Shown one piece after another: positions 14,609 to 31,022 of a DNA stretch of 64,000 nucleotides (positions are counted from its first letter, which is position 1; every line of letters begins with the position of its first letter). The DNA is taken from the NCBI GenBank assembly GCA_027493375.1, contig JAPVWO010000087.1:2853-66852 (forward strand), read 5' to 3'. Made by a program: the position numbers and the translations under genes. This stretch comes from Candidatus Multivorans thiocomprendens (lineage in GTDB: Bacteria; Acidobacteriota; Thermoanaerobaculia; Multivoradales; Multivoraceae). A model generated the notes under the pieces. It saw only the letters and a program-made list of their open reading frames with translations. It searched no databases and had not been told where the DNA came from.

Positions 14609-14949
14609 TCAGCCAGGGCGATGTCTCCTGGGCTGAACTGCCCGAGCCGACGGGATCGGGACCAGGATTCCGCCGGCCGGTAGTCGTCGTCCAAGGCGAC
14701 GCATTGAACCGAAGTCGAGTAGCGACCGTCGCCTGCGTACCGCTGACCAGCAATCTTCGCTGGGCTGACGCTCCCGGCAACGTCCGACTGACCAGGCGGC
14801 TGACGGGATTGCCAAAGGACTCGGTCGCCAACGTCTCGCAAGTGATCGCTCTCGACCGGGTGCTCCTGGAACCTGCCGTCGCTCGCATTCCGCAAGCCAA
14901 GATCGACCTCGTTCTCTCCGGGATCGATACCGTCCTCGGACGAGAGTGA
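14602..14949 (+). CDS. type II toxin, MazF/PemK family endoribonuclease
   Basis: 115 aa. GDVSWAELPEPTGSGPGFRRPVVVVQGDALN ... VACVPLTSN ... SVANVSQVIALDR matches the PemK/MazF pattern. Confidence 0.85.
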   Translation: MVISQGDVSWAELPEPTGSGPGFRRPVVVVQGDALNRSRVATVACVPLTSNLRWADAPGNVRLTRRLTGLPKDSVANVSQVIALDRVLLEPAVARIPQAKIDLVLSGIDTVLGRE

Positions 14950-15651: not shown

Positions 15652-15726
15652 GTCGGGCCGGGATCTACTGGCCGGATCCTCCGCCACCGCAGCGAGGCGC
15701 GGCAACGGCGCTATCCTTCCGCCGAA

Positions 15727-18700
15727 GTGGCCGCCCCCACGATCTTCGAGACCTGCCAGCCCCGCGACGACATCCTCCGCGGGGCCGTGACCGATGCCGA
15801 CTTCGCCGCCGATCTCGCGTCGGTCCTGAGCGGTTCCGGCAGTCCGGCCTACGCCGACCCCGCCCGGTTCTTCGCCAACACTTATCCCACGCGCGGTCTG
15901 CGGAATCTGCTCGCGAACGTCTGCCGCCGCCTGAGCGGGGCCGGCGGCGAGGCCGCGGCGATCTTCCGGCTCGACACCTCCTACGGCGGCGGCAAGACGC
16001 ACGGCCTCATCGCGCTGGTCCATGCGGCGCAGGGCATGCACGGCGTCGCCGACGCTTCCGAGTTCCTCGACCCGTCGCTGCTGCCAGCGGGCAAGGTGCG
16101 CGTCGCGGCATTCGACGGCGAGAACGCCGACCCCGCCAACGGGCGGGCGCTCGGCGACGGCGTTCTGGCCTACACGCCGTGGGGCGAGATCGCTTACGCT
16201 CTCGCCGGCCCGCCGGGTTACGAGCGCGTACGCAAGAGCGACGAGCTGCGGGCGGCGCCCGGGGCCGGAACGCTCCAGGAGCTGTTCGGCGGCGAGCCGA
16301 CCCTCATCCTGCTCGACGAGCTCTCCGTGTATCTGCGCAAGGTCCGGCGGCTCGACGATGCACGAGACCAGTTGACCGCCTTTCTGACCTCACTGTTCAA
16401 GGCGATCGAGAACGCACCGAAAGCCGCCCTGGTCTACACGCTGGCGATCGGCAAGGCAGACGGCGGCGCGCCGGACGCTTACAGCGAGGAGAACCGCTTC
16501 ATCGCCGACCAGATGGCCGAAGCCGAAAGCGTCTCCGCCCGCAAGGCGACGCTCCTCAACCCGACCGCGGACGACGAGACGATCCAGGTGCTCCGGCGGA
16601 GGCTCTTCGAGAGCATCGATCCTGACGCGGCGGCCGACGTCGCCGGCAAGTACCGCGGGCTCTGGTCCGCTCACGCCGACTCGCTTCCGACTTCGGTCAA
16701 CCCGTCCTCCAACGCAGAGACTTTCGCCGACAGCTACCCACTGCACCCCGAAGTCCTGGAGACCCTGACCGGCAAGACGGCGACCCTCGCCACCTTCCAG
16801 CGCGTGCGCGGCATGTTGCGGTTGCTGGCGCGCACGGTCGGCCAGTTGTGGGAAGAGCACCCGGACGACGCCACGGCCATCCACCTGCACCACATCGACC
16901 CCGGACACGAGCCGATTCGCCAGGAGATACTCACCCGGTTGGGCCAGGACGCCTACGCACCCGCCATCGCCAACGACATTGCGGGCCCGGCCGGCAGGAG
17001 ATCGCTCGCCCAGGAGATCGACGCCACCAACCACGGCAGTCTGCCACCGTACGCGGAGTACGCCGCGCGGACGATCTTCATGCATACGCTGGCGTTCAAC
17101 GAACCGCTCAAGGGACTGGCGCCCGACCAACTGCGCTACTCCATGCTCGGCCCTGAGCTGGACATCAGCTTCATCGAGAAAGCGCGCAAGAACTTCGTCA
17201 CCGAGTCCGCGTACCTGGACGACCGGCCCGCCGCGCCGCTGCGCTTCCTGGCCGAGGCGAACCTGAGCCAGATCATCCGGCGCGAGGAACAGCACATTGA
17301 CAGCGCCGAGGCTCAAGCTGAATTGAACGACCGCATCCGCCGGATCTTCGACGGTCCGGTCTTCGACGCGATCACCTTTCCGGGTGGCCCCTTCGACGTG
17401 CCGGACGAAGTGGGCGACGGCTGCCCCAAGCTCGTCGTCGTCTCCTACGACGCGGTATCCGTTGGGGCAACGGTCGACGAAGTGCCCGACTTGGTGGAAC
17501 GGATCTACTCGCGGAAGGGTGCGGAGAGCCTCTCGCTACGGGCTCTTCGGAATCACCTGGTCTTCGTCGCGGCCGAGGAAGCGCGCAAGTCGAACATGCA
17601 GGATCGGAGCCGCCGGCGGCTGGCGCTGCGCGAGCTGAAGAAGCCGGAACGTTTGGCTGAGTTGGCCGAACACCAGCAGGACCAGGTGCGCGAACAGCAC
17701 CGCCGTTCCGAGCAGGAGCTCGCGGTGGCGATTCAACAGGCATACCGGCACGTCTTCTACCCGTCCCGAAACCGGCTCGGAAGCCATCTCGTTGACCTTG
17801 CGCACACGGCCATTGACATGCAGTCGTCCTCGGAGAGCCCCGGCGCCGGCCAGCGGCAGATCGTCCGCGCGCTGCGCGACCTCGGCAAGCTGCGGCTATC
17901 GGAGGATCAGCCGGACTCTCCGGCCTACGTTCGCGACCGCACGCCGCTGAAGAAGGGACAAATCTCGACCGGCGTCCTTCGCGATGAGTTCCGTCGCGAC
18001 CCTGGACTCCCCATGCTCTCGGGGAACGATGTCTTCATCCGGGGAATCCGCCGGGGCGTTGAACTCGGCGAGTACGTCTACCAGCGCGGAGATCTCCTCT
18101 ACGGTCCCGGCGACCCGGCTCCGACGATCGAGATCGACGAACAGTCGATGATCTTCACCATGGCCTATGCCAGAAACGAGTTGATCTGGCCGCGGCCGAG
18201 CAACGAAGAACTGAAGCCGGGCACGTCCAGCGAGATCCGGGACAAACCAGACGGCCCAGAGCCTTCGCCCGAATCGGGGTTCGCTGTCACGACGGTGCCC
18301 GCCGAGTTCTCCGCCGAGGGACCTTTCAGTGAGGCGCTCATCAAGCTTTGGGAGCAGGCGCGCGACCGGCAGGTCGAGGCGCTCGCAATCTTGACTATCT
18401 CGATGTTCGAGGCGCGCGACGCGTTTCCCATGGTGAACGCGGTCAACGCGGTGTCCGGAGCGACAAAGACGATCCGGTTCGAAGGCGGCTACGAGACTCG
18501 CGACGGCGGTACTCTCGAACTGGCCTTCAGGGGCCCGCCCTCCGACGCCCAACCAGTGCGCGAGTTCCTCCAGCCGCAGTTCCGGGACGCCCCCGAGTCG
18601 ACGATTGAGGCCGCGTTCCACCTGGAGTTCACAGACGGCCTGCCGCTGGACGGCGACGCGCCTGAGCAACTCGCCGGCCAACTGACCCGGTTTGCTGGGG

Positions 18701-18792
18701 GCGCCGCACACGTCTCCGCGTCCGCACAGGCCTGCCCGGCGGACCAGCCATCCAAAGACGACAGGCCTGCCGATGACGGGGACACGGCATGA
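15727..18792 (+). CDS. DUF499-type P-loop ATPase (defence-island ATPase)
   Basis: 1021 aa. N-terminus FETCQPRDDILRG..DFAADLASVL...FFANTYPTRGLRNLL...LDTSYGGGKTHGLIAL (Walker A-like GGGKTH). Walker B LILLDELSVYL. GTG start. Stop overlaps the next start (ATGA 18789-18792). Confidence 0.75.
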   Translation: MAAPTIFETCQPRDDILRGAVTDADFAADLASVLSGSGSPAYADPARFFANTYPTRGLRNLLANVCRRLSGAGGEAAAIFRLDTSYGGGKTHGLIALVHAAQGMHGVADASEFLDPSLLPAGKVRVAAFDGENADPANGRALGDGVLAYTPWGEIAYALAGPPGYERVRKSDELRAAPGAGTLQELFGGEPTLILLDELSVYLRKVRRLDDARDQLTAFLTSLFKAIENAPKAALVYTLAIGKADGGAPDAYSEENRFIADQMAEAESVSARKATLLNPTADDETIQVLRRRLFESIDPDAAADVAGKYRGLWSAHADSLPTSVNPSSNAETFADSYPLHPEVLETLTGKTATLATFQRVRGMLRLLARTVGQLWEEHPDDATAIHLHHIDPGHEPIRQEILTRLGQDAYAPAIANDIAGPAGRRSLAQEIDATNHGSLPPYAEYAARTIFMHTLAFNEPLKGLAPDQLRYSMLGPELDISFIEKARKNFVTESAYLDDRPAAPLRFLAEANLSQIIRREEQHIDSAEAQAELNDRIRRIFDGPVFDAITFPGGPFDVPDEVGDGCPKLVVVSYDAVSVGATVDEVPDLVERIYSRKGAESLSLRALRNHLVFVAAEEARKSNMQDRSRRRLALRELKKPERLAELAEHQQDQVREQHRRSEQELAVAIQQAYRHVFYPSRNRLGSHLVDLAHTAIDMQSSSESPGAGQRQIVRALRDLGKLRLSEDQPDSPAYVRDRTPLKKGQISTGVLRDEFRRDPGLPMLSGNDVFIRGIRRGVELGEYVYQRGDLLYGPGDPAPTIEIDEQSMIFTMAYARNELIWPRPSNEELKPGTSSEIRDKPDGPEPSPESGFAVTTVPAEFSAEGPFSEALIKLWEQARDRQVEALAILTISMFEARDAFPMVNAVNAVSGATKTIRFEGGYETRDGGTLELAFRGPPSDAQPVREFLQPQFRDAPESTIEAAFHLEFTDGLPLDGDAPEQLAGQLTRFAGGAAHVSASAQACPADQPSKDDRPADDGDTA

Positions 18793-19280
18793 CGGCCCAC
18801 CCGCAGCAAACGGACCAGTTCGCTTCGATCGCCCCCCGGCATTCAGCCCCCAGCTACGAGTTGCGAGTCCGCAGACTGGGCGCTGCTCTCTCCATGTACG
18901 AGGTTTGGCAACTCCCGGCGGTGTCGACGCCCCAGATCGCCGCGCCGATTCGCGTAGCCGGCCTCAAGGGCCGCAACCTGGAGTTGGTCGAACACCGCGT
19001 CCTCCGGCGACTCTCTCAAGCCGGCATCAAGCTCGCCCGGCCTGCCGCCGAGCCGATGCACGGACTCCCTCTCAGCGAAGATCTCGCCCTACACCTGGGC
19101 CTCATGTTCCGGGCTCTCGCGCCGATGCGAAGCCGCGAGCGGATGCGCGCCGTAGCGGAAGGCATTGAACGAATGGACCGAGAGGAGGCCGCGTACTGGC
19201 TCGGCATGGCGATGCACCGGCGGCGACCACGGCGAGTCCTGGCGGCGTTGCGGACGCTGTTGACGGCGCCGCCGCGGTGA
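18789..19280 (+). CDS. small protein translationally coupled to the DUF499 ATPase (position/size consistent with the DUF3780-type accessory gene)
   Basis: 163 aa with no motif I can name. The call rests only on the ATGA coupling and on my recollection that a ~180-aa DUF3780 protein follows DUF499 in such modules. Confidence 0.35.
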   Translation: MTAHPQQTDQFASIAPRHSAPSYELRVRRLGAALSMYEVWQLPAVSTPQIAAPIRVAGLKGRNLELVEHRVLRRLSQAGIKLARPAAEPMHGLPLSEDLALHLGLMFRALAPMRSRERMRAVAEGIERMDREEAAYWLGMAMHRRRPRRVLAALRTLLTAPPR

Positions 19281-19331
19281 GGTCGTTTCAGCCGAGCCGC
19301 CAGGCCTGATCGGTGCGTTAGGCTCCCACCG

Positions 19332-20576
19332 ATGTCGGACAGCGAACCGTCAGGCCCCCAACGGCACTCTGCGCCGGCCGCGTCCGCGGAGGATGCCGGA
19401 ACATCGAGCCTCGACGGACACGGCGTCGCCGAGCCGCTGCCCGACGGTCCGAACCAAGAGCCGTCCGATGAGGCGAAGGCCGCAGCTCCAGACGCTCCCG
19501 TGGGCGAGGACATTGAGGGCCTCGACGAGCACGGCGCTTCCTGGGGCGACTATCCGATCGACTCTCTCCTGATCCGACCCGAGCACCGGACCGTCCATGA
19601 CGTGGTGCGCCGCATCGATCGCGAAACCTACATCCTGAATCCGGACTTCCAGCGCGACTTCATCTGGGACGTATCCACCCAGAGCCGGTTAATCGAGTCC
19701 ATTCTGATGCGCATTCCCCTTCCCGTTCTCTACCTCGCGGAGAACGACGACGGAAAGGTGGTCGTCGTGGACGGCCTGCAACGCCTCCGCACGTTGCAAC
19801 GCTTTCTGGATGATGAGTTGAAACTGCGCCTCCCCGACAGGCCGGACTTGCACGGCAAACGGTTTTCCGACCTCTCCGAGAAGCTCCAGAACCGCGTCGA
19901 GGACTGCGGCCTGACGCTCTACTCCATCGACTCGAAGGTGCCGGAACGCGCCCGGCTCGACATCTTCGAGCGCGTCAACAGCGGCGTTCCGCTGACGCGG
20001 CAGCAGATGCGGAACTGCCTTTACATGGGACCGGCGACCCAATTCCTCGCGAAGGAAGCCGGCACGGACCTGTTCAGGAACGCGACGGGGGGGAGTCTCA
20101 AGCAGAAGACGATGCGGGATCGGGAGTTCGTGAACCGCTTCTGCGCGTTCCACCTCTTGTCCCTCAAGGACTACGACGGAGACATGGACCGCTTCCTTGC
20201 AAGGGCGCTCGGCCGCATGAATCGAGCCAACGACGCGACGCTCCATGACGTCCGAGAGGCCTTCCACCGAACATTGACAAACAACCACATGTTGTTCCAG
20301 AAACAGGCCTTCCGGAAGCACGAGCCCGACCAGAACCGGAGAGGGGTCATCAACGCATCGCTGTGGGACGTGATGTCGACCGGTCTGGCCCCCTACGACG
20401 CGATGCGCGTGCTGGAACGAGCCGAGGCCTTCAGGGCCGCCTTCTTCGCACTGCTCCAGGACGAGAAGTTCAACGAAGCGATCACGTACGGCCCGAACGA
20501 CGCTAGGAAGGTCCGCCGCCGGTTCAGGATGGCCGGCCGGATGTTTCGGGAGACCCTGGGTGCTGACGCGGATTGA
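19332..20576 (+). CDS. DUF262 (ParB/GmrSD-N-terminal-like) domain protein without a DUF1524/HNH nuclease domain
   Basis: 414 aa. FQRDFIWDVSTQSRLIESILMRIPLPVLYL ... VVVVDGLQRLRTLQRF (DGQQR-type motif) ... FERVNSGVPLTRQQMRN. Acidic, low-complexity N-terminal ~70 aa. Confidence 0.8.
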   Translation: MSDSEPSGPQRHSAPAASAEDAGTSSLDGHGVAEPLPDGPNQEPSDEAKAAAPDAPVGEDIEGLDEHGASWGDYPIDSLLIRPEHRTVHDVVRRIDRETYILNPDFQRDFIWDVSTQSRLIESILMRIPLPVLYLAENDDGKVVVVDGLQRLRTLQRFLDDELKLRLPDRPDLHGKRFSDLSEKLQNRVEDCGLTLYSIDSKVPERARLDIFERVNSGVPLTRQQMRNCLYMGPATQFLAKEAGTDLFRNATGGSLKQKTMRDREFVNRFCAFHLLSLKDYDGDMDRFLARALGRMNRANDATLHDVREAFHRTLTNNHMLFQKQAFRKHEPDQNRRGVINASLWDVMSTGLAPYDAMRVLERAEAFRAAFFALLQDEKFNEAITYGPNDARKVRRRFRMAGRMFRETLGADAD

Positions 20577-21744
20577 ACTCCGGCACTTCAAGTGCTTCGA
20601 GTTGCTCAAGTTGCCCTTGGCGCCCCTGACGCTGCTCGCGGGGGCCAACGCGTCCGGCAAGAGCACGGTCCTGCAGGCGATCGGCCTCCTGCATCAGACG
20701 GTGAAGGACTCGCCGTTCGCAAACCGGCTGCTCCTCAACGGATCGGTGCTGCGGCTGGGAAGCGCGGTCGATGTGATCGATCAGGTGCATGGCCGACGCT
20801 CCTGCTCGATCACCCTGATCGACTCCATCCTCGGACCTGCCGGCGAGCGGCCGAACGACTCGGCCGCCTCGGGCGAGGAAAGGGAGCTTCTTCACTCCTG
20901 GACCTTCGCGGGCGAGCCAGCGGACCGCTCCTTGAGGCTGACGGCCATGCACTATGAGGACGACGTCGCCAGCGACACGCTCGAAGGCGAGGGCCTGATT
21001 CCACCCGAGATGATGGGCACTCTGCCGACTCGGCTGGAAGAGCTGACCTATCTCACGGCCGAGCGTCTGGGGCCTCGCGACTTCTATCCGCTCCGGGACT
21101 CGGAGGAGGACTCGGCAGTCGGTCCCGCCGGTGAGAACGCGGCCGCGATCCTGGAAGCGCGCCGAAGCGGCGAAGTGCTGCCGGATCTCGTCCTGGAGAA
21201 CGCGCCCCCCACTTGCCTGCTCCAGGCTCAAGCGCGCATGGCGTCGTTCTTTCCCGGCTGCGTACTCGACGTGCGGCAGGTTCCGGGGACGGGCGTCGTG
21301 ACGCTTCGCATCCGGACCTCGGACGACACCGATTTCCATCGCCCCGTGCACACGGGCTTCGGGTTGACCCAGGTGCTGCCCATGGTCGTAGCCGCTCTCT
21401 CCGCCGAGTACGACGCTCTGCTCCTGTTCGAGAACCCCGAGGTTCACCTCCATCCAGCGGGACAGGCCCGGATGGGCGTCTTCCTGGCCGAGGTCGCCGC
21501 AGCTGGCGTGCAAGTGCTCGTCGAAAGCCACAGCGACCATGTGCTGAACGGCATCCGCCGCGCCGTGAAAGCCGGAATCTTGGAACCGAACGATGCCGCG
21601 CTCCACTTCTTCTCGCCACGTTCCGCCGACGCCTCGCAAGTTCAGACACCTGCGATGGATGCTGACGGAAGGTTGGATTTCTGGCCTGACGGCTTCTTCG
21701 ACCAGTTCGACAAGGACCTGAGCGCCCTCGCGGGCTGGGATTGA
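20560..21744 (+). CDS. AAA/ABC-like ATPase with C-terminal DUF3696 motif
   Basis: 394 aa. IELRHFKCF...LLAGANASGKSTVLQAIG (Walker A), YLTAERLGPR, GFGLTQVLPMV, LLLFENPEVHLHPAGQ (Walker B), LVESHSDHVL, C-terminal FWPDGFFDQF. GTG start overlaps the DUF262 gene by 17 nt. Confidence 0.8.
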   Translation: MLTRIELRHFKCFELLKLPLAPLTLLAGANASGKSTVLQAIGLLHQTVKDSPFANRLLLNGSVLRLGSAVDVIDQVHGRRSCSITLIDSILGPAGERPNDSAASGEERELLHSWTFAGEPADRSLRLTAMHYEDDVASDTLEGEGLIPPEMMGTLPTRLEELTYLTAERLGPRDFYPLRDSEEDSAVGPAGENAAAILEARRSGEVLPDLVLENAPPTCLLQAQARMASFFPGCVLDVRQVPGTGVVTLRIRTSDDTDFHRPVHTGFGLTQVLPMVVAALSAEYDALLLFENPEVHLHPAGQARMGVFLAEVAAAGVQVLVESHSDHVLNGIRRAVKAGILEPNDAALHFFSPRSADASQVQTPAMDADGRLDFWPDGFFDQFDKDLSALAGWD

Positions 21745-22706
21745 CGCACGTGCATATCCTAGCCAACGAGCTCTCGGTTCACGGGCAGTTTCCAGACGAT
21801 CTCTCCTTTTGGAACGCCATCGGTCGGCTGATGCAAATGCGGGAGGTCGCACAGCGCCACGGTCACGAGATCTACTGCTCGCGCAGCTTTCGGCATGTCC
21901 AGCCGCGCCCTGGTGTGCGTCTCGAACCAGCTCTCGCTCGTCTGCAACGAGACAGGCGAAGCCTCTTTCTCTCTTGGCTGAATCGTGGTGGCCCCTTCTG
22001 GGACGATACCGGTCGCCACGATCCAGGCGACTGGCTGGAGTGTCCGGAGTGGCCCGAGAAGGTGGTCACCGACACGTCCGTCGGTGAAGCAGCGTTCCGC
22101 GCCCTGAGCGGGTTCAGCTGCGCACTGGTCAGCCTCAGGCCGTCGGACTGGGACTACACGCCGGTTCGCGTCTTTCGCCGGCGCGGGGACCAAGAACTGC
22201 CAGCTGAACATACGGAACTGCCGAACTGGAGGGATCCCGACTCTCTCAAGGAAGGCCTTCGGGACGCGGAACCCCACGTCCAATCGTGGACGGACCTCCG
22301 GCGCGAGACTCGCCGCTTCCCGAACCTGCGCTTCGCGCCCGACTGCCTGGATCCTCTCCGCGGCCTTCCGTTCAGCGAGGGCGCCGCCGACGAGATCCTA
22401 AGGCGGCTCGACGTTCTGAACCGCTTCGCTGGCCTCCACGGCGAGACTGACGCTCCTGCTCCCGAAAGACGCAGGCTTCATCAGAAGTACTTCCGTGGCA
22501 GGAAGGCGTGGTTCTCCGACTCCTCCGACGAAGAGAAGGCCGCGTTCCGTGCCAAGATGACTTTCCATCACCCGGACAGGTCCAGCGGACACCTGTTCTG
22601 CCCCTGGCACGGCAAGGTCAAGATCCAACAGCTCCGCATTCACTTCTCCTGGCCTGAACCGCCAATCTACGTCGTGTACATCGGCCAGAAGATCACCCGC
22701 CGGTGA
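21741..22706 (+). CDS. orphan hypothetical protein, third gene of the DUF262/DUF3696 module
   Basis: 321-aa ORF. TTG start overlaps the upstream stop (TTGA); a GTG at 21750 is an alternative. No recognisable catalytic motif. His/Cys clusters HGHEIYCSRSFRH and HLFCPWHGK. Confidence 0.6.
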   Translation: MTHVHILANELSVHGQFPDDLSFWNAIGRLMQMREVAQRHGHEIYCSRSFRHVQPRPGVRLEPALARLQRDRRSLFLSWLNRGGPFWDDTGRHDPGDWLECPEWPEKVVTDTSVGEAAFRALSGFSCALVSLRPSDWDYTPVRVFRRRGDQELPAEHTELPNWRDPDSLKEGLRDAEPHVQSWTDLRRETRRFPNLRFAPDCLDPLRGLPFSEGAADEILRRLDVLNRFAGLHGETDAPAPERRRLHQKYFRGRKAWFSDSSDEEKAAFRAKMTFHHPDRSSGHLFCPWHGKVKIQQLRIHFSWPEPPIYVVYIGQKITRR

Positions 22707-22718
22707 GGTATTCTAACC

Positions 22719-24793: not shown

Positions 24794-24796
24794 ACG

Positions 24797-27700
24797 ATGA
24801 CCGACGCCCGCCTCATCGAACGCTGGCTGCCGATCGCCGAACTGGGCGAGGAGTCCGCCCGCGAGCGCAGGTCGATGACCGCACTGCCGCCTACCTACTA
24901 CCTGCACGTCTGGTGGGCGCGGAGGCCGCTGGTTGCGTCTCGCGCCGCCGTGCTGGCTTCCCTGCTGCCGGCGAACGCTGACCGGGAACAGTTCCTACAC
25001 GCTGTCGGGATACACGGCGATCCTGTGGCCTCGCGACGTCGAATCGACGCTGCCCGACGGAAGGGCGAACGGTTCAAGGGCGAGGCTTACAGCTACGCCC
25101 GGGCCTTCACGTACTCGCCTCAGTCGGAAGAGCGGGAGCGCCTCGAAGGAGCCTTCGGGGCGCGTGCCGGCGTTTTCACTTGCCTCGACCCGACCGCCGG
25201 CGGCGGCAGCATTCCCTTCGAAGCGGCTCGGCTGGGCGTTCAAGCAATCGCAAACGACCTCAACCCCGTCGCCGCCTTCATCATGCAGGCCACGGTCGAC
25301 TGGCCGGTCAGGCACGGCACCGCGGTGCTCGAAGAGTTCCAGAGGTTGGCGGCCGATTTCGTCGAGCGTAGAGAGGCAGCCCTTCACGCTTGCTACCCGC
25401 CCGAGCCACAAGACAGAGCAGTCAGCACGAACTACCTCTGGGCCCGAACCGTCTCCTGCCCCTACTGCGACGGCCTCGTGCCGCTATCGCCGAACTGGCG
25501 GCTCGCGCCTGGAACCGGCGTGCGGCTGCGACCCGAAGTCACCGGCGGCCCCGGAACCGCAGGACGAGTCTGTTCGTTCGAGATCGTGGAGTCCGCGGAC
25601 GAACAGTCCACCGGGACGGTTGCGCGTGGCGACGGAACCTGCCCGTTCCCCGACTGCGGCCGGGTGATCGACGGAGACGAGATCAAGGAGCAGGCTCAGG
25701 ACGGTCGCATGGGCGAACAGCTCTATGCCGTCGTCTTCAAGCGGCGGGTCGAGACGCGGACGAAGACGGGAAGGATCCGCGAGAAGTGGGTGCGCGGCTA
25801 CCGTGCACCGCGGCCCGAGGACGACAACTCGGCGGAGATCGCGGGCCGTCTGGCCGAGAAGATGCCGGTGTGGGAGGCGTTCGACATCGTGCCGAACGAA
25901 CGATTCCCGGAGGATGGAAACGACACCCGACCGATCCAGTACGGCATGCCACTCTGGCGCGACCTATTCTCGCCCCGGCAACTGCTCTGCCATGGCACCA
26001 GCGTCGAGGTCTTCCGCGAGATGTTCGACGCGGACCAAGCGGCAAGTCCGGTTGGCGACGTTCGGAAGGCGGCCTACGGATACTTGGCCCTTTCGTTGGA
26101 CAAGCTATTGAACTACAGCGCACGAATGACGCGGTGGCACGCGAGCCGCGAGGTCCTCGCAGGCACGTTCGACCGACACGACTTTTCCTTCAAGTGGTCG
26201 TACGCCGAGATGGCACCGCTGATCACCGGACTCGGCTACGACTGGGCGATCAAACAAACCGCCAAGTGCATCGGGGAACTCGTCCGGCTCGTCCACGGCG
26301 ACACCGCTGCCGTGAACGGCACCGGACCCGCCAACCAACTCCGGCTTGCCGGCCCGAACGATGGAACGACGGTCCCAAGCGGGCCGGGCGACCTCCTCGC
26401 GTCGATTCAGCGAGAGCCCTGGGCCGGAGCCCCGGAATCGCCCCCTGTAGCGATCACCTGCAAACCAGCCGAGAGCCTCGACCACATCGAGGACGCCTCT
26501 ATCGACGTCGTCGTCATGGACCCGCCCTACTACGACAACGTGATGTACGCCGAACTGGCCGATTTCTTCTACGTCTGGCTCAGGCGCACCGCGGGGCACG
26601 TCTTCCCGGAGCTCTTCCGGCACCGCCTGACGGACAAGGAGAACGAGGCCATCGCCAACCCGGCCAGGTTCAAGGGGAAGAAAGGCGCACGGGCGCTGGC
26701 GGGGCGCGACTACCAGGAGCGCATGGCAGCTATCTTCCGGGAGTGCGCCAGGGTGCTCAAGCCGGACGGCATCATGACCCTGATGTTCACCCACAAGGCG
26801 ACCGGCGCCTGGGACGCGCTGACGACGGGACTCATGGAAGCGGGCTTCCAGATCACGGCCTCCTGGCCGATCAACACGGAGGCGGCGGGCAGCCTGCACA
26901 TCAAGGACAAGGCTGCCGCCAAGAGCACGATCTTCCTCGTTTGCCGGCCGCCCGATGATCCCGGCGCGGCCGAACTCCGGGACAGCGGAACGTACTGGGA
27001 AGACGTGGAGCCGGAAGTCGCCAAGGCGGTCCGCGACCGCGTCGGCGAGTTTCAGGACGCCGGCATCGGCGGCGTGGACCTGTACCTCGCCTGCTTCGGC
27101 CCGGCGCTCCAGCGGTTCTCGGAACACTGGCCGCTGCGGCGCGGCACGCCCCGGGAACTGCCGGCCAGCGCTCGGCGAAGAGGTCATCAGGCGACCTTGC
27201 AGCTCGAAGAGCAGGACCCTTACGCCGTCACGCCGGAGGACGCGCTCGACGTCGCACGCCGGGAAGTGAAGCGCTGGAGGCTGGAGCAACTGACCCACCT
27301 CAAGGCCAATGTGGACCTCGACCCGGCGACCGCCTTCTTCGTGCTGGCCTGGGACGCCTTCAAGGCGCCCGGTTTCTCCTACGACGAGGCGCTGCGCTTG
27401 GCCCGCGCCACGGGCGTCGACCTGGACCGCGACATCGTCGGACGGCTCGCGCTCAAGAAGAGCGGCAACCTTCAACTCTGGGACAGCGAGCGCCGGGCCG
27501 CCCGGGGCGCCCTCGGACCGGCCGACGGTTCCCGCGGGATGATCGACGCCCTCCATCACGCGGCGCACATGGCGCGCAACAGGTCGCTGGAGGAGGCCCG
27601 CGACCTGCTCGCGCGCGCCGAGGTCGACGAGGATCCGCTCTTCCTGGCCGCCTTCGAGGCCGTGCTCGAGGTGCTCCCGGTGTCCTCGACCTTCACCGGC

Positions 27701-27832
27701 GTCGCCCTCAAGGGTGAGATCGCCGCCTTCAGCAACGACTTCGAGGCTCTCTACAACCTCCGGCGCTTCGCCTTCGCCGACCAGATCGATGAGCCGGAAC
27801 AGCTCGCGATCTGGCGCCGAGACGCGACGTGA
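24797..27832 (+). CDS. DUF1156-domain N6-adenine DNA methyltransferase
   Basis: 1011 aa. N-terminal DUF1156 signature ERWLPIAELGEESARERR...YYLHVWWARRPLVASRA. AdoMet motif CLDPTAGGGSIPFEA. Zn-ribbon insert CPYCDG...CPFPDCG. Catalytic motif IV VVMDPPYYDNVMY. Confidence 0.85.
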   Translation: MTDARLIERWLPIAELGEESARERRSMTALPPTYYLHVWWARRPLVASRAAVLASLLPANADREQFLHAVGIHGDPVASRRRIDAARRKGERFKGEAYSYARAFTYSPQSEERERLEGAFGARAGVFTCLDPTAGGGSIPFEAARLGVQAIANDLNPVAAFIMQATVDWPVRHGTAVLEEFQRLAADFVERREAALHACYPPEPQDRAVSTNYLWARTVSCPYCDGLVPLSPNWRLAPGTGVRLRPEVTGGPGTAGRVCSFEIVESADEQSTGTVARGDGTCPFPDCGRVIDGDEIKEQAQDGRMGEQLYAVVFKRRVETRTKTGRIREKWVRGYRAPRPEDDNSAEIAGRLAEKMPVWEAFDIVPNERFPEDGNDTRPIQYGMPLWRDLFSPRQLLCHGTSVEVFREMFDADQAASPVGDVRKAAYGYLALSLDKLLNYSARMTRWHASREVLAGTFDRHDFSFKWSYAEMAPLITGLGYDWAIKQTAKCIGELVRLVHGDTAAVNGTGPANQLRLAGPNDGTTVPSGPGDLLASIQREPWAGAPESPPVAITCKPAESLDHIEDASIDVVVMDPPYYDNVMYAELADFFYVWLRRTAGHVFPELFRHRLTDKENEAIANPARFKGKKGARALAGRDYQERMAAIFRECARVLKPDGIMTLMFTHKATGAWDALTTGLMEAGFQITASWPINTEAAGSLHIKDKAAAKSTIFLVCRPPDDPGAAELRDSGTYWEDVEPEVAKAVRDRVGEFQDAGIGGVDLYLACFGPALQRFSEHWPLRRGTPRELPASARRRGHQATLQLEEQDPYAVTPEDALDVARREVKRWRLEQLTHLKANVDLDPATAFFVLAWDAFKAPGFSYDEALRLARATGVDLDRDIVGRLALKKSGNLQLWDSERRAARGALGPADGSRGMIDALHHAAHMARNRSLEEARDLLARAEVDEDPLFLAAFEAVLEVLPVSSTFTGVALKGEIAAFSNDFEALYNLRRFAFADQIDEPEQLAIWRRDAT

Positions 27833-27836
27833 TGCG

Positions 27837-30800
27837 ATGCTCTCGGACCACTACTGGCGTCTGAAGTACACGCCGGACGACGGCGACCTGGTGCGGATCT
27901 TCTATCTCCCGGCACTCGAGGACGCGGAGAGCTACGACCGGCTGACTGGTTACTTCAAGGCCGGCGCGCTGACCCTGGCGGCGCGAGGAATCGAGGGGCT
28001 GGTCCGCAACGCAGGCCGCATGAGGCTGCTGGTGGGCTGCACCCTGGACCCGCCCGAGATCGAAGCGATCGAACGAGGCGAGAACCTTCGGGACGCCGTA
28101 GAGCAACACTTGGGCGCCATCCCGCTCGAACCCGCGGACCAGGAATCGACCGACGCCCTGGAACTGCTGGCCTGGATGGTCGCAGGCGGCCACCTCGAAG
28201 TGAAGGTCGCCGTGCCCTGCGACGCGAACCGGCGGCCCATTTTCGCCGAGGGCATCTTCCACGAGAAGTCGGGCGTGATCGAAGACCGGGTCGGCGACCG
28301 GATCGCCTGGACCGGCAGCCTCAACGAGACCGCGGCGGGCTGGCGCCAGAACTGGGAGAGCATCAGCGTCTTCAAGAGCTGGGGTGAAGGATCGGAGCCC
28401 GAGCGGGTGACCCGCGAACAGACGAACTTCGATCGCCTGTGGGCCGACGAGTCGCCCCATGTCGTCGTGCTCGACGCGCCGGAGGCAGCGCGCCGGGATC
28501 TGCTGCGCTTCATGCCGGAGAGTGACAAGCCGGCCCGACTGAAGAGGGGTGAGCTGGCCGCGACGCCGGACGAGCCGCCAGCTCCCGTCACCGGACCGCC
28601 CGCCCCACCACCCAAGGCCGAGCCGGACCTGAGGAGCCGCGTGTGGTCCTTCATCCAACAGGCACCTTCTCTGCCGGGTGGCGGCCGGCGGGTCGGCGAA
28701 GCCACCGCGGCAGTGACCCCCTGGCCGCACCAGGTCCGGGCCTTCGAGCGACTCTACGCCGAATGGCCGCCGCGGTTGCTGATCGCCGACGAGGTCGGCT
28801 TGGGCAAGACGATCCAGGCCGGCATGCTGCTGCGGCAAGCCTGGCTCGCAGGGCGCGCGAAGCGCATCCTCGTGCTGGCGCCCAAGGCGGTGTGTCGGCA
28901 GTGGCAGATCGAATTGCGTGAGAAGTTCAACCTGAACTGGCCGATCTACGATGGTAGACGGTTGGTGCGCTACCCCTCACCGGCGCTCCAGGGCGCAAAC
29001 GAACGCGATGTCGGCCGAGACGACTGGCACAAGGCGCCCGCCGTCATGGTGTCGAGCCATCTCTTGCGCCGGAGCGATCGCGCCCGGAGCCTGCTCGATC
29101 AGGCCGAGTCGTGGGACCTGATCGTCGTCGACGAGGCCCACCACGCCCGCCGGCGGGAACTCGGCGGCAGCCGCCGCGCGCAGAGGCCGAACGCCATGCT
29201 GGGGTTGCTTCAGGCCATCTCGCAGAGAACCCAAGGGCTGGTTCTGTTGACCGCGACGCCGATGCAAGTTCATCCGGTCGAGGTCTGGGATCTGCTGGCC
29301 CTCCTCGGCCTGCCGCCCGAATGGACGCAGGAGCGGTTCCTGAAGTTCTTCGAGGACATCGAAGAGCCGAACCCCTCGCACGAGGCACTGGACCGGATCG
29401 CGGAAATGTTCCGAGCGACCGAGGCGCGCTACGGAACAACCGGAAAGGCAGTGGCCGAGGGCGCGACCGGCCTTCGCTCACTCGGCGCCGGCAAAGTGCT
29501 GAGGGCGCTGAGGAGCCCCTCCTCCATCGCCCGCCGGCGGCTGCAGGCACCGGAACGGAGGGCCGCCATCGCCGTCGCGCGGGCCAACACGCCGATTCGC
29601 CACCTCGTGTCGCGCCATACGCGCAGGCTGCTACGCGGATACCGCGAACGCGGCATGGTGGACGCGTCGGTCGCGGACCGGAACGTCGAGGATCGCATGG
29701 TGACGATGAGCACCGAGGAACGACGAGTCTACGAAGCGGTCGGAACCTACATCTCCAGCACCTACAACAAGGCCGAAGCCCGCGAGCGCAACGCGGTCGG
29801 ATTCGTGATGACCACCTACCGGCGGCGGCTGGCCAGCAGCTTCCAGGCGCTTCGCAACACGCTCCGGGATCGGCTGGAAGCCTTCGCAGACCCTGAGCGC
29901 GAACGTAATACCGACCTCGACGAGGACGCCTTCGAGGACGAGATCCGGGCCGAGAACTGGGACGCCGAGGACTTGGCCGAGGAGGAACGCGCCGCCCTGG
30001 AGGCGGAAGAGCAGACCATGATCGCCGAGCTTCTCGACCGGGCCCAACGACTGCCACCCGACAGCAAGCTGGCGGCACTCAAGGACGAACTCAACCGCCT
30101 GCGCGACGAGGGCTACGGGCAGGTCATGGTGTTCACCCAGTACACCGACACGATGGACTTCCTGCGGGAAGCGCTCGCCGACGCCAAGCTCATGTGCTAT
30201 TCGGGCCGCGGCGGCGAAGCGCCAACCGCCGACGGCGGCTGGCGCAAGATCGACCGCGACGAAGTCAAGCGGCGCTTCCGCGAGGGCGACGCGGACATCC
30301 TGCTATGCACCGACGCAGCCTCGGAGGGCCTCAACTTCCAGTTCTGCGGCGCTCTCGTGAACTACGACATGCCGTGGAATCCGATGCGGGTAGAACAGCG
30401 GATAGGCCGCATCGACCGCCTGGGCCAGCGGAGTCCCACAATCCAGATCGTCAACCTCCACTACGAAGACACGGTCGAGACCGACGTGTATCAGGCGCTG
30501 CGCGATCGCATCGGCCTGTTCGAGGCCGTCGTCGGCCGGCTGCAACCGATCCTGGCGGAGTTGCCGCGTTCGATCACTGCGGAAGTTCTCGCCGACCGGG
30601 CCTCCTCGGCCTCCCTCGCCCATCGCCTCGAGGGGCAAATCGTCGAAGCCCAAGCCGGCGGCTTCGACCTCGACGAAGTGCTCGAAGAAGATCTGGAGAT
30701 GCCCGTCCTGCCAGAGTCGCCCCTCACGATGGCCGACCTCGACCGCGTCATCTCACGGCCCGACCTGATGCCGTCTGGAGTGGAGATTCGCCCGATGGGC

Positions 30801-31022
30801 GCTCGCGAGTACAGCCTACTGGCTCCCGGAATGAAGGAGGCGCTTCGAGTCACGACGGACCAGGAGTACTACGAAGAGCACTCGGAGAGCCTTGAGCTCT
30901 GGTCGCCGGGAAACCCGCTGTTCGAACCTCCGGAGCGGGCAGTGCCCGACACTTCGCATCAAGGGGACCGTGACCAAGCAAAGGCGCCGCGGACCCTTCG
31001 CGACCTGCTCAGCACGCGATAG
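27837..31022 (+). CDS. PLD-nuclease / SNF2-family helicase fusion
   Basis: In-frame ATG at 27837, 4 nt after the MTase stop. PLD HxK(x)4D motif FHEKSGVIED with GSLNET. SNF2 motifs LIADEVGLGKTIQAG (I), LIVVDEAHHARR (II), VLLTATPMQ (III), LLCTDAASEGLNFQ (V), WNPMRVEQRIGRIDRLGQ (VI). Confidence 0.85.
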   Translation: MLSDHYWRLKYTPDDGDLVRIFYLPALEDAESYDRLTGYFKAGALTLAARGIEGLVRNAGRMRLLVGCTLDPPEIEAIERGENLRDAVEQHLGAIPLEPADQESTDALELLAWMVAGGHLEVKVAVPCDANRRPIFAEGIFHEKSGVIEDRVGDRIAWTGSLNETAAGWRQNWESISVFKSWGEGSEPERVTREQTNFDRLWADESPHVVVLDAPEAARRDLLRFMPESDKPARLKRGELAATPDEPPAPVTGPPAPPPKAEPDLRSRVWSFIQQAPSLPGGGRRVGEATAAVTPWPHQVRAFERLYAEWPPRLLIADEVGLGKTIQAGMLLRQAWLAGRAKRILVLAPKAVCRQWQIELREKFNLNWPIYDGRRLVRYPSPALQGANERDVGRDDWHKAPAVMVSSHLLRRSDRARSLLDQAESWDLIVVDEAHHARRRELGGSRRAQRPNAMLGLLQAISQRTQGLVLLTATPMQVHPVEVWDLLALLGLPPEWTQERFLKFFEDIEEPNPSHEALDRIAEMFRATEARYGTTGKAVAEGATGLRSLGAGKVLRALRSPSSIARRRLQAPERRAAIAVARANTPIRHLVSRHTRRLLRGYRERGMVDASVADRNVEDRMVTMSTEERRVYEAVGTYISSTYNKAEARERNAVGFVMTTYRRRLASSFQALRNTLRDRLEAFADPERERNTDLDEDAFEDEIRAENWDAEDLAEEERAALEAEEQTMIAELLDRAQRLPPDSKLAALKDELNRLRDEGYGQVMVFTQYTDTMDFLREALADAKLMCYSGRGGEAPTADGGWRKIDRDEVKRRFREGDADILLCTDAASEGLNFQFCGALVNYDMPWNPMRVEQRIGRIDRLGQRSPTIQIVNLHYEDTVETDVYQALRDRIGLFEAVVGRLQPILAELPRSITAEVLADRASSASLAHRLEGQIVEAQAGGFDLDEVLEEDLEMPVLPESPLTMADLDRVISRPDLMPSGVEIRPMGAREYSLLAPGMKEALRVTTDQEYYEEHSESLELWSPGNPLFEPPERAVPDTSHQGDRDQAKAPRTLRDLLSTR

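What the first reader, a model, noticed from the sequence alone, without database searches (positions are those of the whole stretch)
15727..31022. Ten-gene, translationally coupled defence super-operon in which an RM-like DUF499/DUF1156/PLD-SNF2 module is split by two other defence modules
SEEN: ten + strand ORFs run from 15727 to 31022. The junctions are ATGA (18789-18792), a 51-nt gap (19281-19331), a 17-nt overlap (20560-20576), TTGA (21741-21744), a 12-nt gap, GTGA (24029-24032), a 3-nt gap and a 4-nt gap. The gene order is: DUF499-type ATPase, a 163-aa protein, DUF262, a DUF3696-type ATPase, a 321-aa orphan, a PtuA-like ATPase, a PtuB-like HNH, a DUF1156 MTase and a PLD-SNF2 helicase. 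KNOWN: DUF499 ATPases, DUF1156 N6-adenine methylases and SNF2/PLD helicases normally sit adjacent as one RM-like defence-island module. Septu (PtuAB) is an autonomous two-gene system. INFERENCE: here the RM-like module is separated into 5' and 3' halves by ~5.5 kb carrying two further modules, with no room for terminators or promoters except possibly 19281-19331. One explanation is defence cargo nested inside another defence operon. Hand-counted lines near 19.7 and 23.0 kb are ~57-58% GC, against ~68-75% for sampled DUF499/MTase/helicase lines, although sampling was noisy. The alternative is a genuinely composite multi-effector system under one promoter. I do not recognise either arrangement as described.
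Basis: partly seen in the sequence, partly recalled or inferred. Interest (0 to 1): 0.85.

Follow-up and report, generated by a model that had tools for sequence, protein, structure and literature searches.

The report
Defence genes nested inside a defence operon
This is a restriction-modification-like phage-defence operon (Hma / MANTIS-like) carrying two complete extra defence systems, Menshen and Septu, in a conserved cargo slot between two of its genes, an arrangement already published as "embedded" defence systems, so it is a good example and not a new kind of thing.

Summary
The GC dip in the middle is about 3-4 points, not about 12.

HMM searches support every domain call and identify the two unnamed proteins. 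The 163-aa protein is DUF7680. The 321-aa "orphan" is NsnC, so genes 3-5 form a Menshen system.

The four outer genes are a DUF499 ATPase, DUF7680, a DUF1156 N6-adenine methyltransferase and a PLD-SNF2 helicase. They have the gene order of MANTIS (Gao_RL, Type-2 BREX-related) and hit PADLOC's Hma models.

In 83 related loci the DUF7680|methyltransferase junction is a dedicated cargo slot. It holds more than 200 nt of insert in 56 of 62 loci. Contents include nothing, Septu, Menshen, both in either order, and at least seven other cassettes.

Fragments of the flanking core genes sit between cassettes, and synonymous-site divergence is discordant along the operon. Both point to cassette exchange by recombination between such loci.

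Payne et al. (bioRxiv 2024) reported embedded genes in 62.7% of Hma systems, most commonly Septu. Possibly new here: the undescribed DUF7680 subunit, the single dominant slot, the recombination scars and the five-gene double cassette.

The parts
15652..15726 (+). 75-nt non-coding stretch upstream of the first gene. It is the only sizeable intergenic space before the operon. A promoter here is presumed, not shown.
   Evidence: Sequence. The sigma-70 consensus scan found nothing here, but that scan is not calibrated for Acidobacteriota.
15727..18792 (+). hmaC / mtsA-like gene: DUF499 ORC/Cdc6-type AAA+ ATPase, 1021 aa. Walker A is YGGGKTHG (residues 86-93) and Walker B is LILLDE (193-198).
   Evidence: Pfam DUF499 2e-38. 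PADLOC HmaC 1e-95. NCBIfam DUF499_antiphage 7e-60, below the curated cut-off. 23% identity to a canonical MANTIS-type DUF499 protein. Motifs.
18789..19280 (+). DUF7680 small protein, 163 aa. It occupies the position of MtsB (DUF3780) in MANTIS, and its stop codon is the 5' border of the cargo slot.
   Evidence: Pfam DUF7680 2e-42. 2566 homologues. Adjacent to the DUF499 gene in 83 of 84 loci. AF2 model with pLDDT 84.9 shows 4 strands and 5 helices. No PDB fold match. hhalign against DUF3780 gives probability 0.14%.
19281..19331 (+). 51-nt spacer at the left edge of the cargo slot. Homology among close relatives ends exactly at the DUF7680 stop codon.
   Evidence: Border alignment. No terminator-like or promoter-like consensus.
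19332..20576 (+). nsnA (Menshen): ParB/DUF262-type protein, 414 aa. It has a DGLQR motif at residues 147-151 and a low-complexity N-terminus of about 70 aa.
   Evidence: PADLOC NsnA 6.5e-112. Pfam GmrSD_N 2e-23. Sequence.
20560..21744 (+). nsnB (Menshen): ABC ATPase with a C-terminal DUF3696 domain, 394 aa. Walker A is GANASGKS.
   Evidence: PADLOC NsnB 5.4e-98. Pfam AAA_15, AAA_21 and DUF3696. Motif.
21741..22706 (+). nsnC (Menshen effector component), 321 aa, or 318 aa if it starts at GTG 21750.
   Evidence: PADLOC NsnC PDLC03896 1.2e-96 over the full length. No Pfam hit. Alternative start seen in other assemblies.
22719..24032 (+). ptuA (Septu): ABC ATPase, 437 aa. Walker A is GTNACGKT.
   Evidence: PADLOC PtuA 1.8e-110. 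NCBIfam PtuA 5.6e-82, below the curated cut-off. Motif.
24029..24793 (+). ptuB (Septu): HNH endonuclease, 254 aa.
   Evidence: PADLOC PtuB 4.7e-49. NCBIfam TIGR02646, 60.4 bits against a cut-off of 52.15. The last ~40 nt plus the 3-nt gap to hmaB are conserved in relatives, including a remnant in L002.
24797..27832 (+). hmaB / mtsC-like gene: DUF1156 N6-adenine DNA methyltransferase, 1011 aa. Motif IV is DPPY at residues 575-578. Its start codon is the 3' border of the cargo slot.
   Evidence: Pfam DUF1156 3e-16. PADLOC HmaB 1.6e-72. NCBIfam DUF1156_antiphage 1e-65, below the cut-off. Motif.
27837..31022 (+). hmaA / mtsD-like gene: N-terminal PLD (HKD) nuclease fused to a Swi2/Snf2 helicase, 1061 aa. 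Motifs are H142-x-K144, GSLN, GLGKT (321), DEAH (432) and QRIGR (854).
   Evidence: Pfam PLDc_2, SNF2-rel_dom and Helicase_C. PADLOC BrxHI 2e-78, PLD_Helicase 2e-73 and HmaA 3e-62. NCBIfam phospholipD_antiphage 9e-115, below the cut-off. RapA is the closest solved relative. Motifs.

Best explanation
The locus is one four-gene, methylation-based, restriction-like defence system with two self-contained defence systems embedded in it.

Core system. The four core genes are a DUF499 AAA+ ATPase, a small DUF7680 protein, a DUF1156 N6-adenine methyltransferase and a PLD-nuclease/SNF2-helicase. PADLOC detects this as Hma. Its gene order and domain set match MANTIS (Gao_RL, Type-2 BREX-related).

Embedded cargo. 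Menshen (NsnABC) and Septu (PtuAB) lie in tandem in the junction between the DUF7680 gene and the methyltransferase gene. In this subfamily that junction is a conserved cargo slot.

How it most likely works (inferred by analogy with the MANTIS preprint and the Septu/Menshen literature, not shown here):
1. The ATPase and the small protein load the methyltransferase onto short asymmetric sites, marking self DNA.
2. The same recognition complex licenses the dimeric PLD-helicase to cut unmodified DNA.
3. Menshen and Septu act as independent ABC-ATPase-gated nuclease systems, giving a second layer of defence.
4. All nine genes are probably read from one promoter upstream of 15727, because the junctions are overlaps or gaps of at most 51 nt.

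How it arose (supported by comparative data): cassettes are swapped and stacked between homologous loci by recombination that uses the conserved flanking core genes as homology arms. No dedicated mobile element is involved.
For: Identity of parts: HMM hits, and intact catalytic motifs.

The slot:
- In 83 related loci plus the window, inserts longer than 200 nt occur at DUF7680|hmaB in 56 of 62 loci (52 of them longer than 1 kb).
- The other junctions are rarely occupied: hmaC|DUF7680 in 1 of 84 and hmaB|hmaA in 6 of 45.
- Slot length ranges from 21 nt to 9.2 kb.
- Contents are Septu (~28 loci), Menshen (~16), both in either order, an unannotated three-gene MBL-fold cassette (12-13), M78 peptidase + DUF4411 (6), a STAND-TPR protein (6), HATPase + Dcm + Vsr (3), ABC-3C (3), TIR + SLOG, an Hsp70-like set and TPR-GreAB-C-PIN.

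Same site, different cargo: L001 and L002 share the thiolase / SBP_bac_5 left flank (L002 also the BCCT right flank), with hmaC 85-90% identical, but carry Septu only or M78 + DUF4411.

The core can stand alone: an Aminobacter plasmid carries the four genes with overlapping stops and starts.

Sharp borders: homology stops at the DUF7680 stop codon and resumes at the end of ptuB and the hmaB ATG.

Recombination:
- hmaB 5' fragments (aa 1 to about 40-80) and DUF7680 3' fragments lie between cassettes in L027, L040, L024, L057, L013 and L017, and next to displaced cassettes in L041, L042 and L048.
- Some fragments are closer to other loci than to the resident gene. In L013 the fragment is 95% identical to another locus against 79% to the resident gene.
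- Four-fold-site identity between the window and L004 is 0.84 and 0.83 in hmaC and hmaA, but 0.44-0.65 in the cargo and 0.56 in hmaB.
- ptuB occurs as two alleles, 43% against 73% identical, within one clade.

Literature:
- Embedding in Hma: 62.7% of 1,485 systems have embedded genes, Septu is the commonest, and 96.7% of embedded genes are co-oriented (bioRxiv 10.1101/2024.01.29.577857; also PMC11232893 and PMC12839542).
- Core mechanism: bioRxiv 10.64898/2026.09.23.753747.
- Menshen and Septu architecture: PMC12065111.
Against: - Co-transcription is inferred only from spacing and orientation. No expression data exist, and promoters inside coding sequence cannot be excluded. The promoter and terminator scan uses E. 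coli-type consensus and is weak evidence for an acidobacterium.
- The small subunit is not MtsB. DUF7680 shows no detectable sequence similarity to DUF3780, and the ATPase is only 23% identical to a canonical MANTIS-type protein. Transfer of the MANTIS mechanism is therefore an analogy.
- Cargo identity correlates with core identity across loci (Spearman 0.74-0.82). Much of the association is therefore long-lived co-inheritance, which is also compatible with functional coupling.
- In the window itself there is no scar between Menshen and Septu (12-nt gap) and there are no flanking repeats. The history of this particular array is inferred from relatives.
Confidence: 0.82

Rival explanations
1. 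The nine genes form one integrated multi-effector machine. On this view Menshen and Septu are not autonomous here but are wired to the core. For example, they could be held inactive by the core complex and released when a phage anti-restriction protein disables it, as PrrC is controlled by EcoprrI.
For: - Cargo is co-oriented and tightly packed, and the ptuB-hmaB junction is conserved across the clade.
- Cargo identity tracks core identity (rho 0.74-0.82).
- The commonest cargo types are ABC-ATPase-gated nucleases, a class with members known to be triggered by anti-restriction proteins. This is discussed in bioRxiv 10.1101/2024.01.29.577857 and PMC12839542.
Against: - The slot is empty in about 10% of loci and in a plasmid copy, so the core is complete without cargo.
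- At least ten unrelated cassettes occupy the same slot, and the order of Septu and Menshen flips in L027 and L067.
- Both systems are reported as active on their own (PMC12065111 for Menshen. Septu rests on established literature, Doron et al. 2018, which was not re-read here).
- No fusion or shared subunit links cargo to core.
Confidence: 0.12
2. The modules are ordinary neighbours in a defence island. Each has its own promoter lying inside the upstream gene's coding sequence, and the split of the core is incidental.
For: The only support is the 51-nt gap at 19281-19331 and the general possibility of intragenic promoters. The consensus scan is uninformative for this phylum.
Against: - Four junctions overlap and three are gaps of 3-12 nt.
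- The same junction is used in 56 of 62 related loci, while the other two junctions are almost never used. A random island layout would not produce that pattern.
Confidence: 0.05
3. The five middle genes arrived recently on a mobile element (transposon, integron-like cassette or integrative element) that happened to land in the operon.
For: GC and GC3 are slightly lower in the middle genes. Payne et al. report that 3.1% of Hma-embedded genes are mobility-associated.
Against: - The slot contains no transposase or integrase, the window has no tRNA, and there are no flanking direct or inverted repeats beyond chance.
- The same Menshen + Septu array is present in three other species-level genomes with 64-80% protein identity, so it is old.
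Confidence: 0.01

Closest known systems
Hma systems with embedded defence systems (Payne et al. 2021; bioRxiv 10.1101/2024.01.29.577857, 2024; Halomonas meridiana Hma, PMC11232893)
   Same: - The core is a DUF499 ATPase, a DUF1156 methylase and an SNF2 helicase, all detected by PADLOC Hma models.
- Other defence systems, most often Septu, lie between the hma genes in the same orientation.
- Most systems are occupied: 62.7% in Payne et al., and 66.5% in the Halomonas paper's survey of ~1,079 hmaA homologues across phyla.
   Different: - The helicase here carries an N-terminal PLD nuclease rather than the C-terminal NOV_C/REase of the tested Halomonas HmaA.
- A fourth conserved gene, DUF7680, is present.
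- Cargo is concentrated at one junction.
- Six genes lie between hmaC and hmaB. The 2024 survey allowed at most three per junction, so arrays like this one were outside its search.
- Two complete systems are stacked in tandem.
MANTIS (Gao_RL / Gao_29; Type-2 DUF499-centred BREX-related system): MtsA-MtsB-MtsC-MtsD (bioRxiv 10.64898/2026.09.23.753747; PMC12839542)
   Same: - The four-gene order is the same: AAA+ DUF499 ATPase, small protein, DPPY N6-adenine methyltransferase, N-terminal HKD/PLD nuclease + SF2 helicase.
- The genes are tightly coupled, as in the A. baumannii plasmid example L093.
- NCBIfam's anti-phage DUF499, DUF1156 and PLD models hit the three large proteins.
   Different: - The small protein is DUF7680, with no detectable similarity to DUF3780/MtsB.
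- The three large proteins score far below NCBIfam's equivalog cut-offs (203-385 bits against 1000-1200).
- The ATPase is only 23% identical.
- Methylation specificity and orientation-dependent restriction are untested here.
- The canonical examples inspected had no cargo between the small protein and the methylase.
BREX and type I RM loci with embedded systems (PrrC in EcoprrI, BrxU in pEFER BREX, PARIS in BREX)
   Same: A methylation-based system hosts an unrelated, co-oriented second-line system inside its operon. This is discussed in bioRxiv 10.1101/2024.01.29.577857 and PMC12839542.
   Different: The host system and the cargo are different. A functional link of the PrrC-EcoprrI kind has not been shown for this locus.
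Septu (PtuAB) and Menshen (NsnABC) as stand-alone systems
   Same: All components are present with intact ATPase motifs and full-length HMM matches.
   Different: Here they have no intergenic space of their own and sit inside another operon. NsnA carries a low-complexity N-terminal extension of about 70 aa.

Membership tests
Hma (PADLOC definition) | HmaC: DUF499 AAA+ ATPase | tested here: met
   PADLOC HmaC 1.1e-95 covering residues 8-701. Pfam DUF499 2e-38.
Hma (PADLOC definition) | HmaB: DUF1156 DNA adenine methylase | tested here: met
   PADLOC HmaB 1.6e-72. Pfam DUF1156 3e-16. DPPY at residues 575-578.
Hma (PADLOC definition) | HmaA: SNF2/DEAD helicase | tested here: inconclusive
   The HmaA model hits at 2.7e-62, but BrxHI (2.4e-78), PLD_Helicase (1.6e-73) and DrmD score better. 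The nuclease domain is an N-terminal PLD, not the C-terminal NOV_C/REase of the characterised HmaA (PMC11232893).
Hma (PADLOC definition) | At most three intervening genes between hma genes (operational rule of the 2024 embedding survey) | tested here: not met
   Six genes (DUF7680 plus five cargo genes) lie between hmaC and hmaB. The rule is quoted from bioRxiv 10.1101/2024.01.29.577857.
MANTIS / Type-2 BREX-related system | MtsA: DUF499 ORC/Cdc6-clade AAA+ ATPase with Walker A/B | tested here: met
   It is a distant homologue of a canonical example (23% identity, E 4e-27).
MANTIS / Type-2 BREX-related system | MtsB: standalone DUF3780 protein (present in 98% of Type-2 BR taxa) | tested here: not met
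   None of the nine proteins has a DUF3780 Pfam hit. The protein in that position is DUF7680. hhalign of the DUF7680 profile against an annotated DUF3780 protein gives probability 0.14%. The AF2 model has 4 strands and 5 helices, the same element count as described for DUF3780 in PMC12839542. A fold comparison could not be run.
MANTIS / Type-2 BREX-related system | MtsC: N6-adenine methyltransferase with DPPY motif | tested here: met
   DPPY at residues 575-578. DUF1156. NCBIfam DUF1156_antiphage 1e-65, below the cut-off.
MANTIS / Type-2 BREX-related system | MtsD: N-terminal HKD/PLD nuclease fused to an SF2 helicase | tested here: met
   PLDc_2 domain with HEK...D...GSLN at residues 142-164. 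GLGKT, DEAH and QRIGR helicase motifs. NCBIfam phospholipD_antiphage 9e-115, below the cut-off.
MANTIS / Type-2 BREX-related system | Hemimethylation of asymmetric 6-bp sites and restriction favouring inverted site pairs | not testable with these tools
   This needs methylome data or biochemistry.
Septu | PtuA ABC ATPase followed by PtuB HNH nuclease as an adjacent pair | tested here: met
   PtuA 1.8e-110 and PtuB 4.7e-49. TIGR02646 is above its cut-off. GTGA overlap. Walker A is GTNACGKT.
Menshen | NsnA (ParB/DUF262), NsnB (ABC ATPase + DUF3696) and NsnC in one operon | tested here: met
   NsnA 6.5e-112, NsnB 5.4e-98 and NsnC 1.2e-96. DUF3696 6e-16. The genes overlap.
Menshen | NsnC architecture: inactive-PIN N-domain plus a nuclease/toxin C-domain (PMC12065111) | not tested
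   Only the full-length PADLOC match was obtained. No structure was predicted for NsnC.

The most novel reading that the evidence does not exclude
The DUF7680|methyltransferase junction may be more than a tolerated insertion point. It could be a selected docking site that makes expression of the methylase and nuclease depend on read-through of the cargo. The resident ABC-ATPase systems (Septu, Menshen) could then be functionally coupled to the core as sensors of anti-restriction proteins, in the way PrrC is coupled to EcoprrI. On this reading DUF7680 would be an undescribed, non-homologous replacement of MtsB that defines a separate MANTIS-like family. That family would act as a shared cassette-exchange platform across at least eight phyla.
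Probability: 0.15. Interest if true: 0.6.

Novelty: new member of a known kind. Interest (0 to 1): 0.3.

Why it matters
The general phenomenon is published, so this locus does not change the picture of prokaryotic immunity. It still has three uses:
1. It is a clean, high-occupancy example in which one junction of a four-gene restriction-like operon takes nearly all the cargo. That makes it a good place to mine for new defence genes. One recurrent three-gene cassette in the slot has no hit in PADLOC, Pfam or NCBIfam for two of its proteins.
2. The fragments of flanking core genes between cassettes give direct sequence evidence for how embedded cassettes are exchanged and stacked. The embedding paper left this question open.
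3. The core carries DUF7680 where MANTIS carries MtsB. MtsB's role is the least understood step of the MANTIS mechanism, so a non-homologous protein in the same position is a useful comparison.

Tried and rejected
- DUF7680 function: a profile search of PDB sequences gave only a chance hit. Foldseek of a confident AF2 model against PDB gave nothing below E 0.078 and no TM-score above 0.4. Pfam at E up to 10 gave only weak RovC_DNA-bd and ANTAR hits, which I do not trust.
- DUF7680 = DUF3780? Not supported by hhalign. A fold-to-fold comparison was not possible because only window or database proteins can be modelled, and the MANTIS structures are not in the PDB copy.
- Mobile-element signatures: the window has no tRNA, and there are no meaningful direct or inverted repeats around the cargo.
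- Promoter and terminator scan: one promoter-like hit and five terminator-like hits, at or below the number expected by chance, and only two weak ones on the coding strand inside the operon. This is uninformative for this phylum.
- Habitat of the host: the closest genomes are Candidatus Multivorans / Thermoanaerobaculia MAGs. A literature search for the genus gave nothing usable, so I make no habitat claim.
- GC as evidence of foreign origin: the difference is real but small. I rely on synteny and synonymous-site divergence instead.
- Assembly artefact: rejected, because the locus recurs in at least 7 assemblies.

Full report
**1. What is in the sequence**

Nine + strand ORFs run from 15727 to 31022.

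The junctions are as described:
- ATGA at 18789
- a 51-nt gap at 19281-19331
- a 17-nt overlap at 20560-20576
- TTGA at 21741
- a 12-nt gap
- GTGA at 24029
- a 3-nt gap
- a 4-nt gap if the last gene starts at ATG 27837

One junction is uncertain. NsnC may start at GTG 21750 instead, because both starts are called in other assemblies.

The same nine-gene locus, in the same flanks, occurs in at least seven independent assemblies from JGI, ENA and Logan. It is therefore not an assembly artefact.

The closest genomes are Candidatus Multivorans and Thermoanaerobaculia MAGs of the Acidobacteriota.

**2. What the genes are**

| Gene | Coordinates | Identity | Key evidence |
|---|---|---|---|
| 1 | 15727-18792 | DUF499 AAA+ ATPase | PADLOC HmaC 1e-95 |
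| 2 | 18789-19280 | DUF7680 | Pfam 2e-42 |
| 3 | 19332-20576 | NsnA | 6.5e-112 |
| 4 | 20560-21744 | NsnB | 5.4e-98 |
| 5 | 21741-22706 | NsnC | 1.2e-96 |
| 6 | 22719-24032 | PtuA | 1.8e-110 |
| 7 | 24029-24793 | PtuB | 4.7e-49 |
| 8 | 24797-27832 | DUF1156 N6-adenine methyltransferase | HmaB 1.6e-72, DPPY motif |
| 9 | 27837-31022 | N-terminal PLD (HKD) nuclease fused to a Swi2/Snf2 helicase | Pfam PLDc_2, SNF2-rel_dom, Helicase_C |

Genes 6-7 are Septu. ATPase, methylase and nuclease motifs are intact throughout.

NCBIfam's three "anti-phage" models for DUF499, DUF1156 and the PLD protein hit genes 1, 8 and 9, but far below their equivalog cut-offs.

**3. Composition**

The five middle genes have 63.3-65.8% GC against 67.2-68.5% for the outer four. 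GC3 is 0.75-0.83 against 0.79-0.85. The lowest 500-nt windows are 0.61-0.62. The dip is real but far smaller than the hand count suggested.

Housekeeping genes in the window have GC3 of 0.85-0.95. The whole island is therefore somewhat atypical, not only its middle.

**4. Comparative evidence**

The DUF499 protein has more than 2,400 homologues and DUF7680 has a similar number. I collected 83 loci and located the nine proteins in them by tblastn.

The order DUF499-DUF7680-[variable]-DUF1156-helicase is the rule. Inserts longer than 200 nt are distributed as follows:

| Junction | Loci with insert >200 nt |
|---|---|
| DUF7680 to methylase | 56 of 62 (52 of them >1 kb) |
| ATPase to DUF7680 | 1 of 84 |
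| methylase to helicase | 6 of 45 |

Slot length runs from 21 nt (L011, L012, L023) to 9.2 kb.

Clustering the slot ORFs and annotating representatives gave these contents:
- Septu in about 28 loci
- Menshen in about 16 loci
- Menshen then Septu, as in the window, in L004, L006 and L073
- Septu then Menshen in L027 and L067
- an unannotated three-gene cassette ending in an MBL-fold protein, in 12-13 loci
- an M78 peptidase + DUF4411 pair in 6 loci
- a STAND-TPR protein in 6 loci
- HATPase + Dcm + Vsr in 3 loci
- an ABC-3C pair in 3 loci
- TIR + SLOG, an Hsp70-like set and a TPR-GreAB-C-PIN set, once each

Two relatives share the window's thiolase / SBP_bac_5 left flank, and L002 also its BCCT right flank. 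They carry Septu only (L001, ATPase 90% identical) or M78 + DUF4411 (L002).

An Aminobacter plasmid carries just the four core genes with overlapping stops and starts. A Pseudanabaena plasmid, whose ATPase is only 34% identical, still has DUF7680 followed by a MazF/RHH pair in the slot.

This shows that the middle genes are cargo in a conserved slot and that the four outer genes are a complete unit.

**5. How cargo gets there**

Among close relatives, homology ends exactly at the DUF7680 stop codon. It resumes in the last ~40 nt of ptuB and at the methylase ATG. L002 retains that ptuB tail as a remnant.

Several multi-cassette loci have short pieces of the methylase 5' end (aa 1 to about 40-80) and of the DUF7680 3' end between cassettes. 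These are L027, L040, L024, L057, L013 and L017. Similar pieces lie beside displaced cassettes in L041, L042 and L048. Some pieces resemble other loci more than the resident gene. In L013 the fragment is 95% identical to another locus against 79% to the resident gene.

Four-fold-site identity between the window and its closest relative, L004, varies along the operon:
- 0.84 in the ATPase and 0.83 in the helicase
- 0.44-0.65 in the cargo
- 0.56 in the methylase

Against L001, by contrast, the methylase matches the flanks at 0.72. ptuB exists as two alleles, 43% against 73% identical, within one clade.

Together these results indicate exchange and stacking of cassettes, and of methylase alleles, by recombination between homologous loci using the core genes as arms. 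The window has no transposase, integrase, tRNA or flanking repeats.

Across loci, cargo identity still tracks core identity (rho 0.74-0.82). Between exchanges, cargo and core are therefore inherited together.

**6. Mechanism**

The core has the gene order and domain set of MANTIS (Gao_RL, Type-2 BREX-related). In MANTIS an AAA+ ATPase and a small dimeric protein load a DPPY methyltransferase that hemimethylates asymmetric 6-bp sites. The same recognition step licenses a dimeric PLD-helicase to restrict DNA, preferentially between inverted unmodified sites (bioRxiv 10.64898/2026.09.23.753747; classification in PMC12839542).

I infer the same logic here, with a caveat:
- The small protein is DUF7680, not DUF3780/MtsB. 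No Pfam link exists, and hhalign gives probability 0.14%.
- A confident AF2 model has four strands and five helices.
- The model has no PDB match.
- The ATPase is only 23% identical to a canonical example.

Menshen and Septu are ABC-ATPase-gated nuclease systems described as autonomous (PMC12065111). I take them to act independently as a second layer of defence.

Co-transcription of all nine genes is inferred from spacing and orientation only. The consensus promoter and terminator scan is uninformative.

**7. Comparison with the literature**

Embedding is published in three places:
- Payne et al. (bioRxiv 10.1101/2024.01.29.577857) report that Septu is commonly encoded between hma genes. They find that 931 of 1,485 Hma systems (62.7%) have embedded genes in 376 cassette types, and that embedded genes are co-oriented in 96.7% of cases. 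They used this "guilt by embedding" to find new systems.
- The Halomonas Hma paper (PMC11232893) calls the hma region a defence-gene insertion hotspot.
- Rakesh and Krishnan (PMC12839542) catalogue OLD-ABC + HNH dyads and other effectors inside BREX-related loci.

I did not find the following described:
- DUF7680. No paper in the library mentions it.
- The near-exclusive use of one junction in this subfamily.
- The core-gene fragments between cassettes as evidence of the exchange route.
- Arrays as long as this one. With six genes between hmaC and hmaB, it exceeds the three-gene limit of the 2024 survey.

**8. Verdict**

The "nested cargo" interpretation is supported. The arrangement is a further member of a known kind. 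Interest is modest. Its value lies in the slot as a place to mine for defence genes, the recombination evidence, and DUF7680 as a comparator for the poorly understood MtsB step.

Noticed in passing
window 14366-14949 (+): A ribbon-helix-helix protein (80 aa) overlaps a PemK/MazF-family toxin (115 aa). This is a toxin-antitoxin pair lying between the SBP_bac_5 gene and the defence operon.
   Followed up: partly
window 9209-10933 (-): A solitary 574-aa ABC ATPase with weak AriA, NsnB and GajA-type hits (about 1e-22) sits next to a sulfatase gene. It may be a further defence-type gene outside the island.
   Followed up: partly
window 31136-32209 (-): A 357-aa protein with a pPIWI-associated nuclease domain (pP_pnuc_1, 5e-8) lies in the lowest-GC stretch of the region (about 0.60), directly downstream of the helicase gene. 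Relatives carry different genes at this position.
   Followed up: no
L010 13751-16249 (also L013, L016, L021, L022, L024, L030, L033, L040, L044, L053, L057): A recurrent co-oriented three-gene cassette occupies the slot: proteins of about 230 aa and 200 aa, plus an MBL-fold protein of about 365 aa. The first two proteins have no Pfam or PADLOC hit, and the second also has none in NCBIfam. The third has only weak LmuA and RT-associated-MBL hits. Lone remnants of 106-130 aa of the middle gene occur in L036, L037, L061, L065, L074 and L080. This is a candidate undescribed defence system.
   Followed up: partly
L001 5874-9981: In a relative with the same left-flank genes as the window, an HTH-M78 regulator and a CBASS operon (SMODS, E2, patatin) are inserted immediately upstream of the DUF499 gene. 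The 5' flank of the operon is therefore also variable.
   Followed up: no
L050, L062, L063, L069, L076, L078: In several Vicinamibacterales genomes the methylase and helicase genes lie on the opposite strand, upstream of the DUF499-DUF7680 pair. This is a divergent layout of the same four genes.
   Followed up: no
L004-L083 (table): DUF499 proteins 62-70% identical to the window's occur in MAGs assigned to many phyla: Alpha- and Gammaproteobacteria, Binatia, Latescibacterota, Spirochaetia, Gemmatimonadota, Acidobacteriota and Entotheonella. This implies wide horizontal spread of this subfamily.
   Followed up: no
window 24797-24900 and relatives (alignment): The first ~30 codons of the methylase occur as two distinct alleles among close relatives, and the alleles do not follow the cargo type. 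Whole-gene synonymous divergence also switches partner: it is close to L001 and far from L004. This suggests recombination breakpoints inside or next to the methylase, and possibly swaps of specificity.
   Followed up: partly
L041 3497-5729: An orphan Septu pair preceded by a DUF7680 3' fragment lies about 4 kb upstream of an intact core that carries Menshen. It looks like a displaced cassette.
   Followed up: partly
L003 17307-18067: An IS element (DDE_Tnp_1 / DUF4096) interrupts the methylase gene of a relative that carries Septu in the slot.
   Followed up: no
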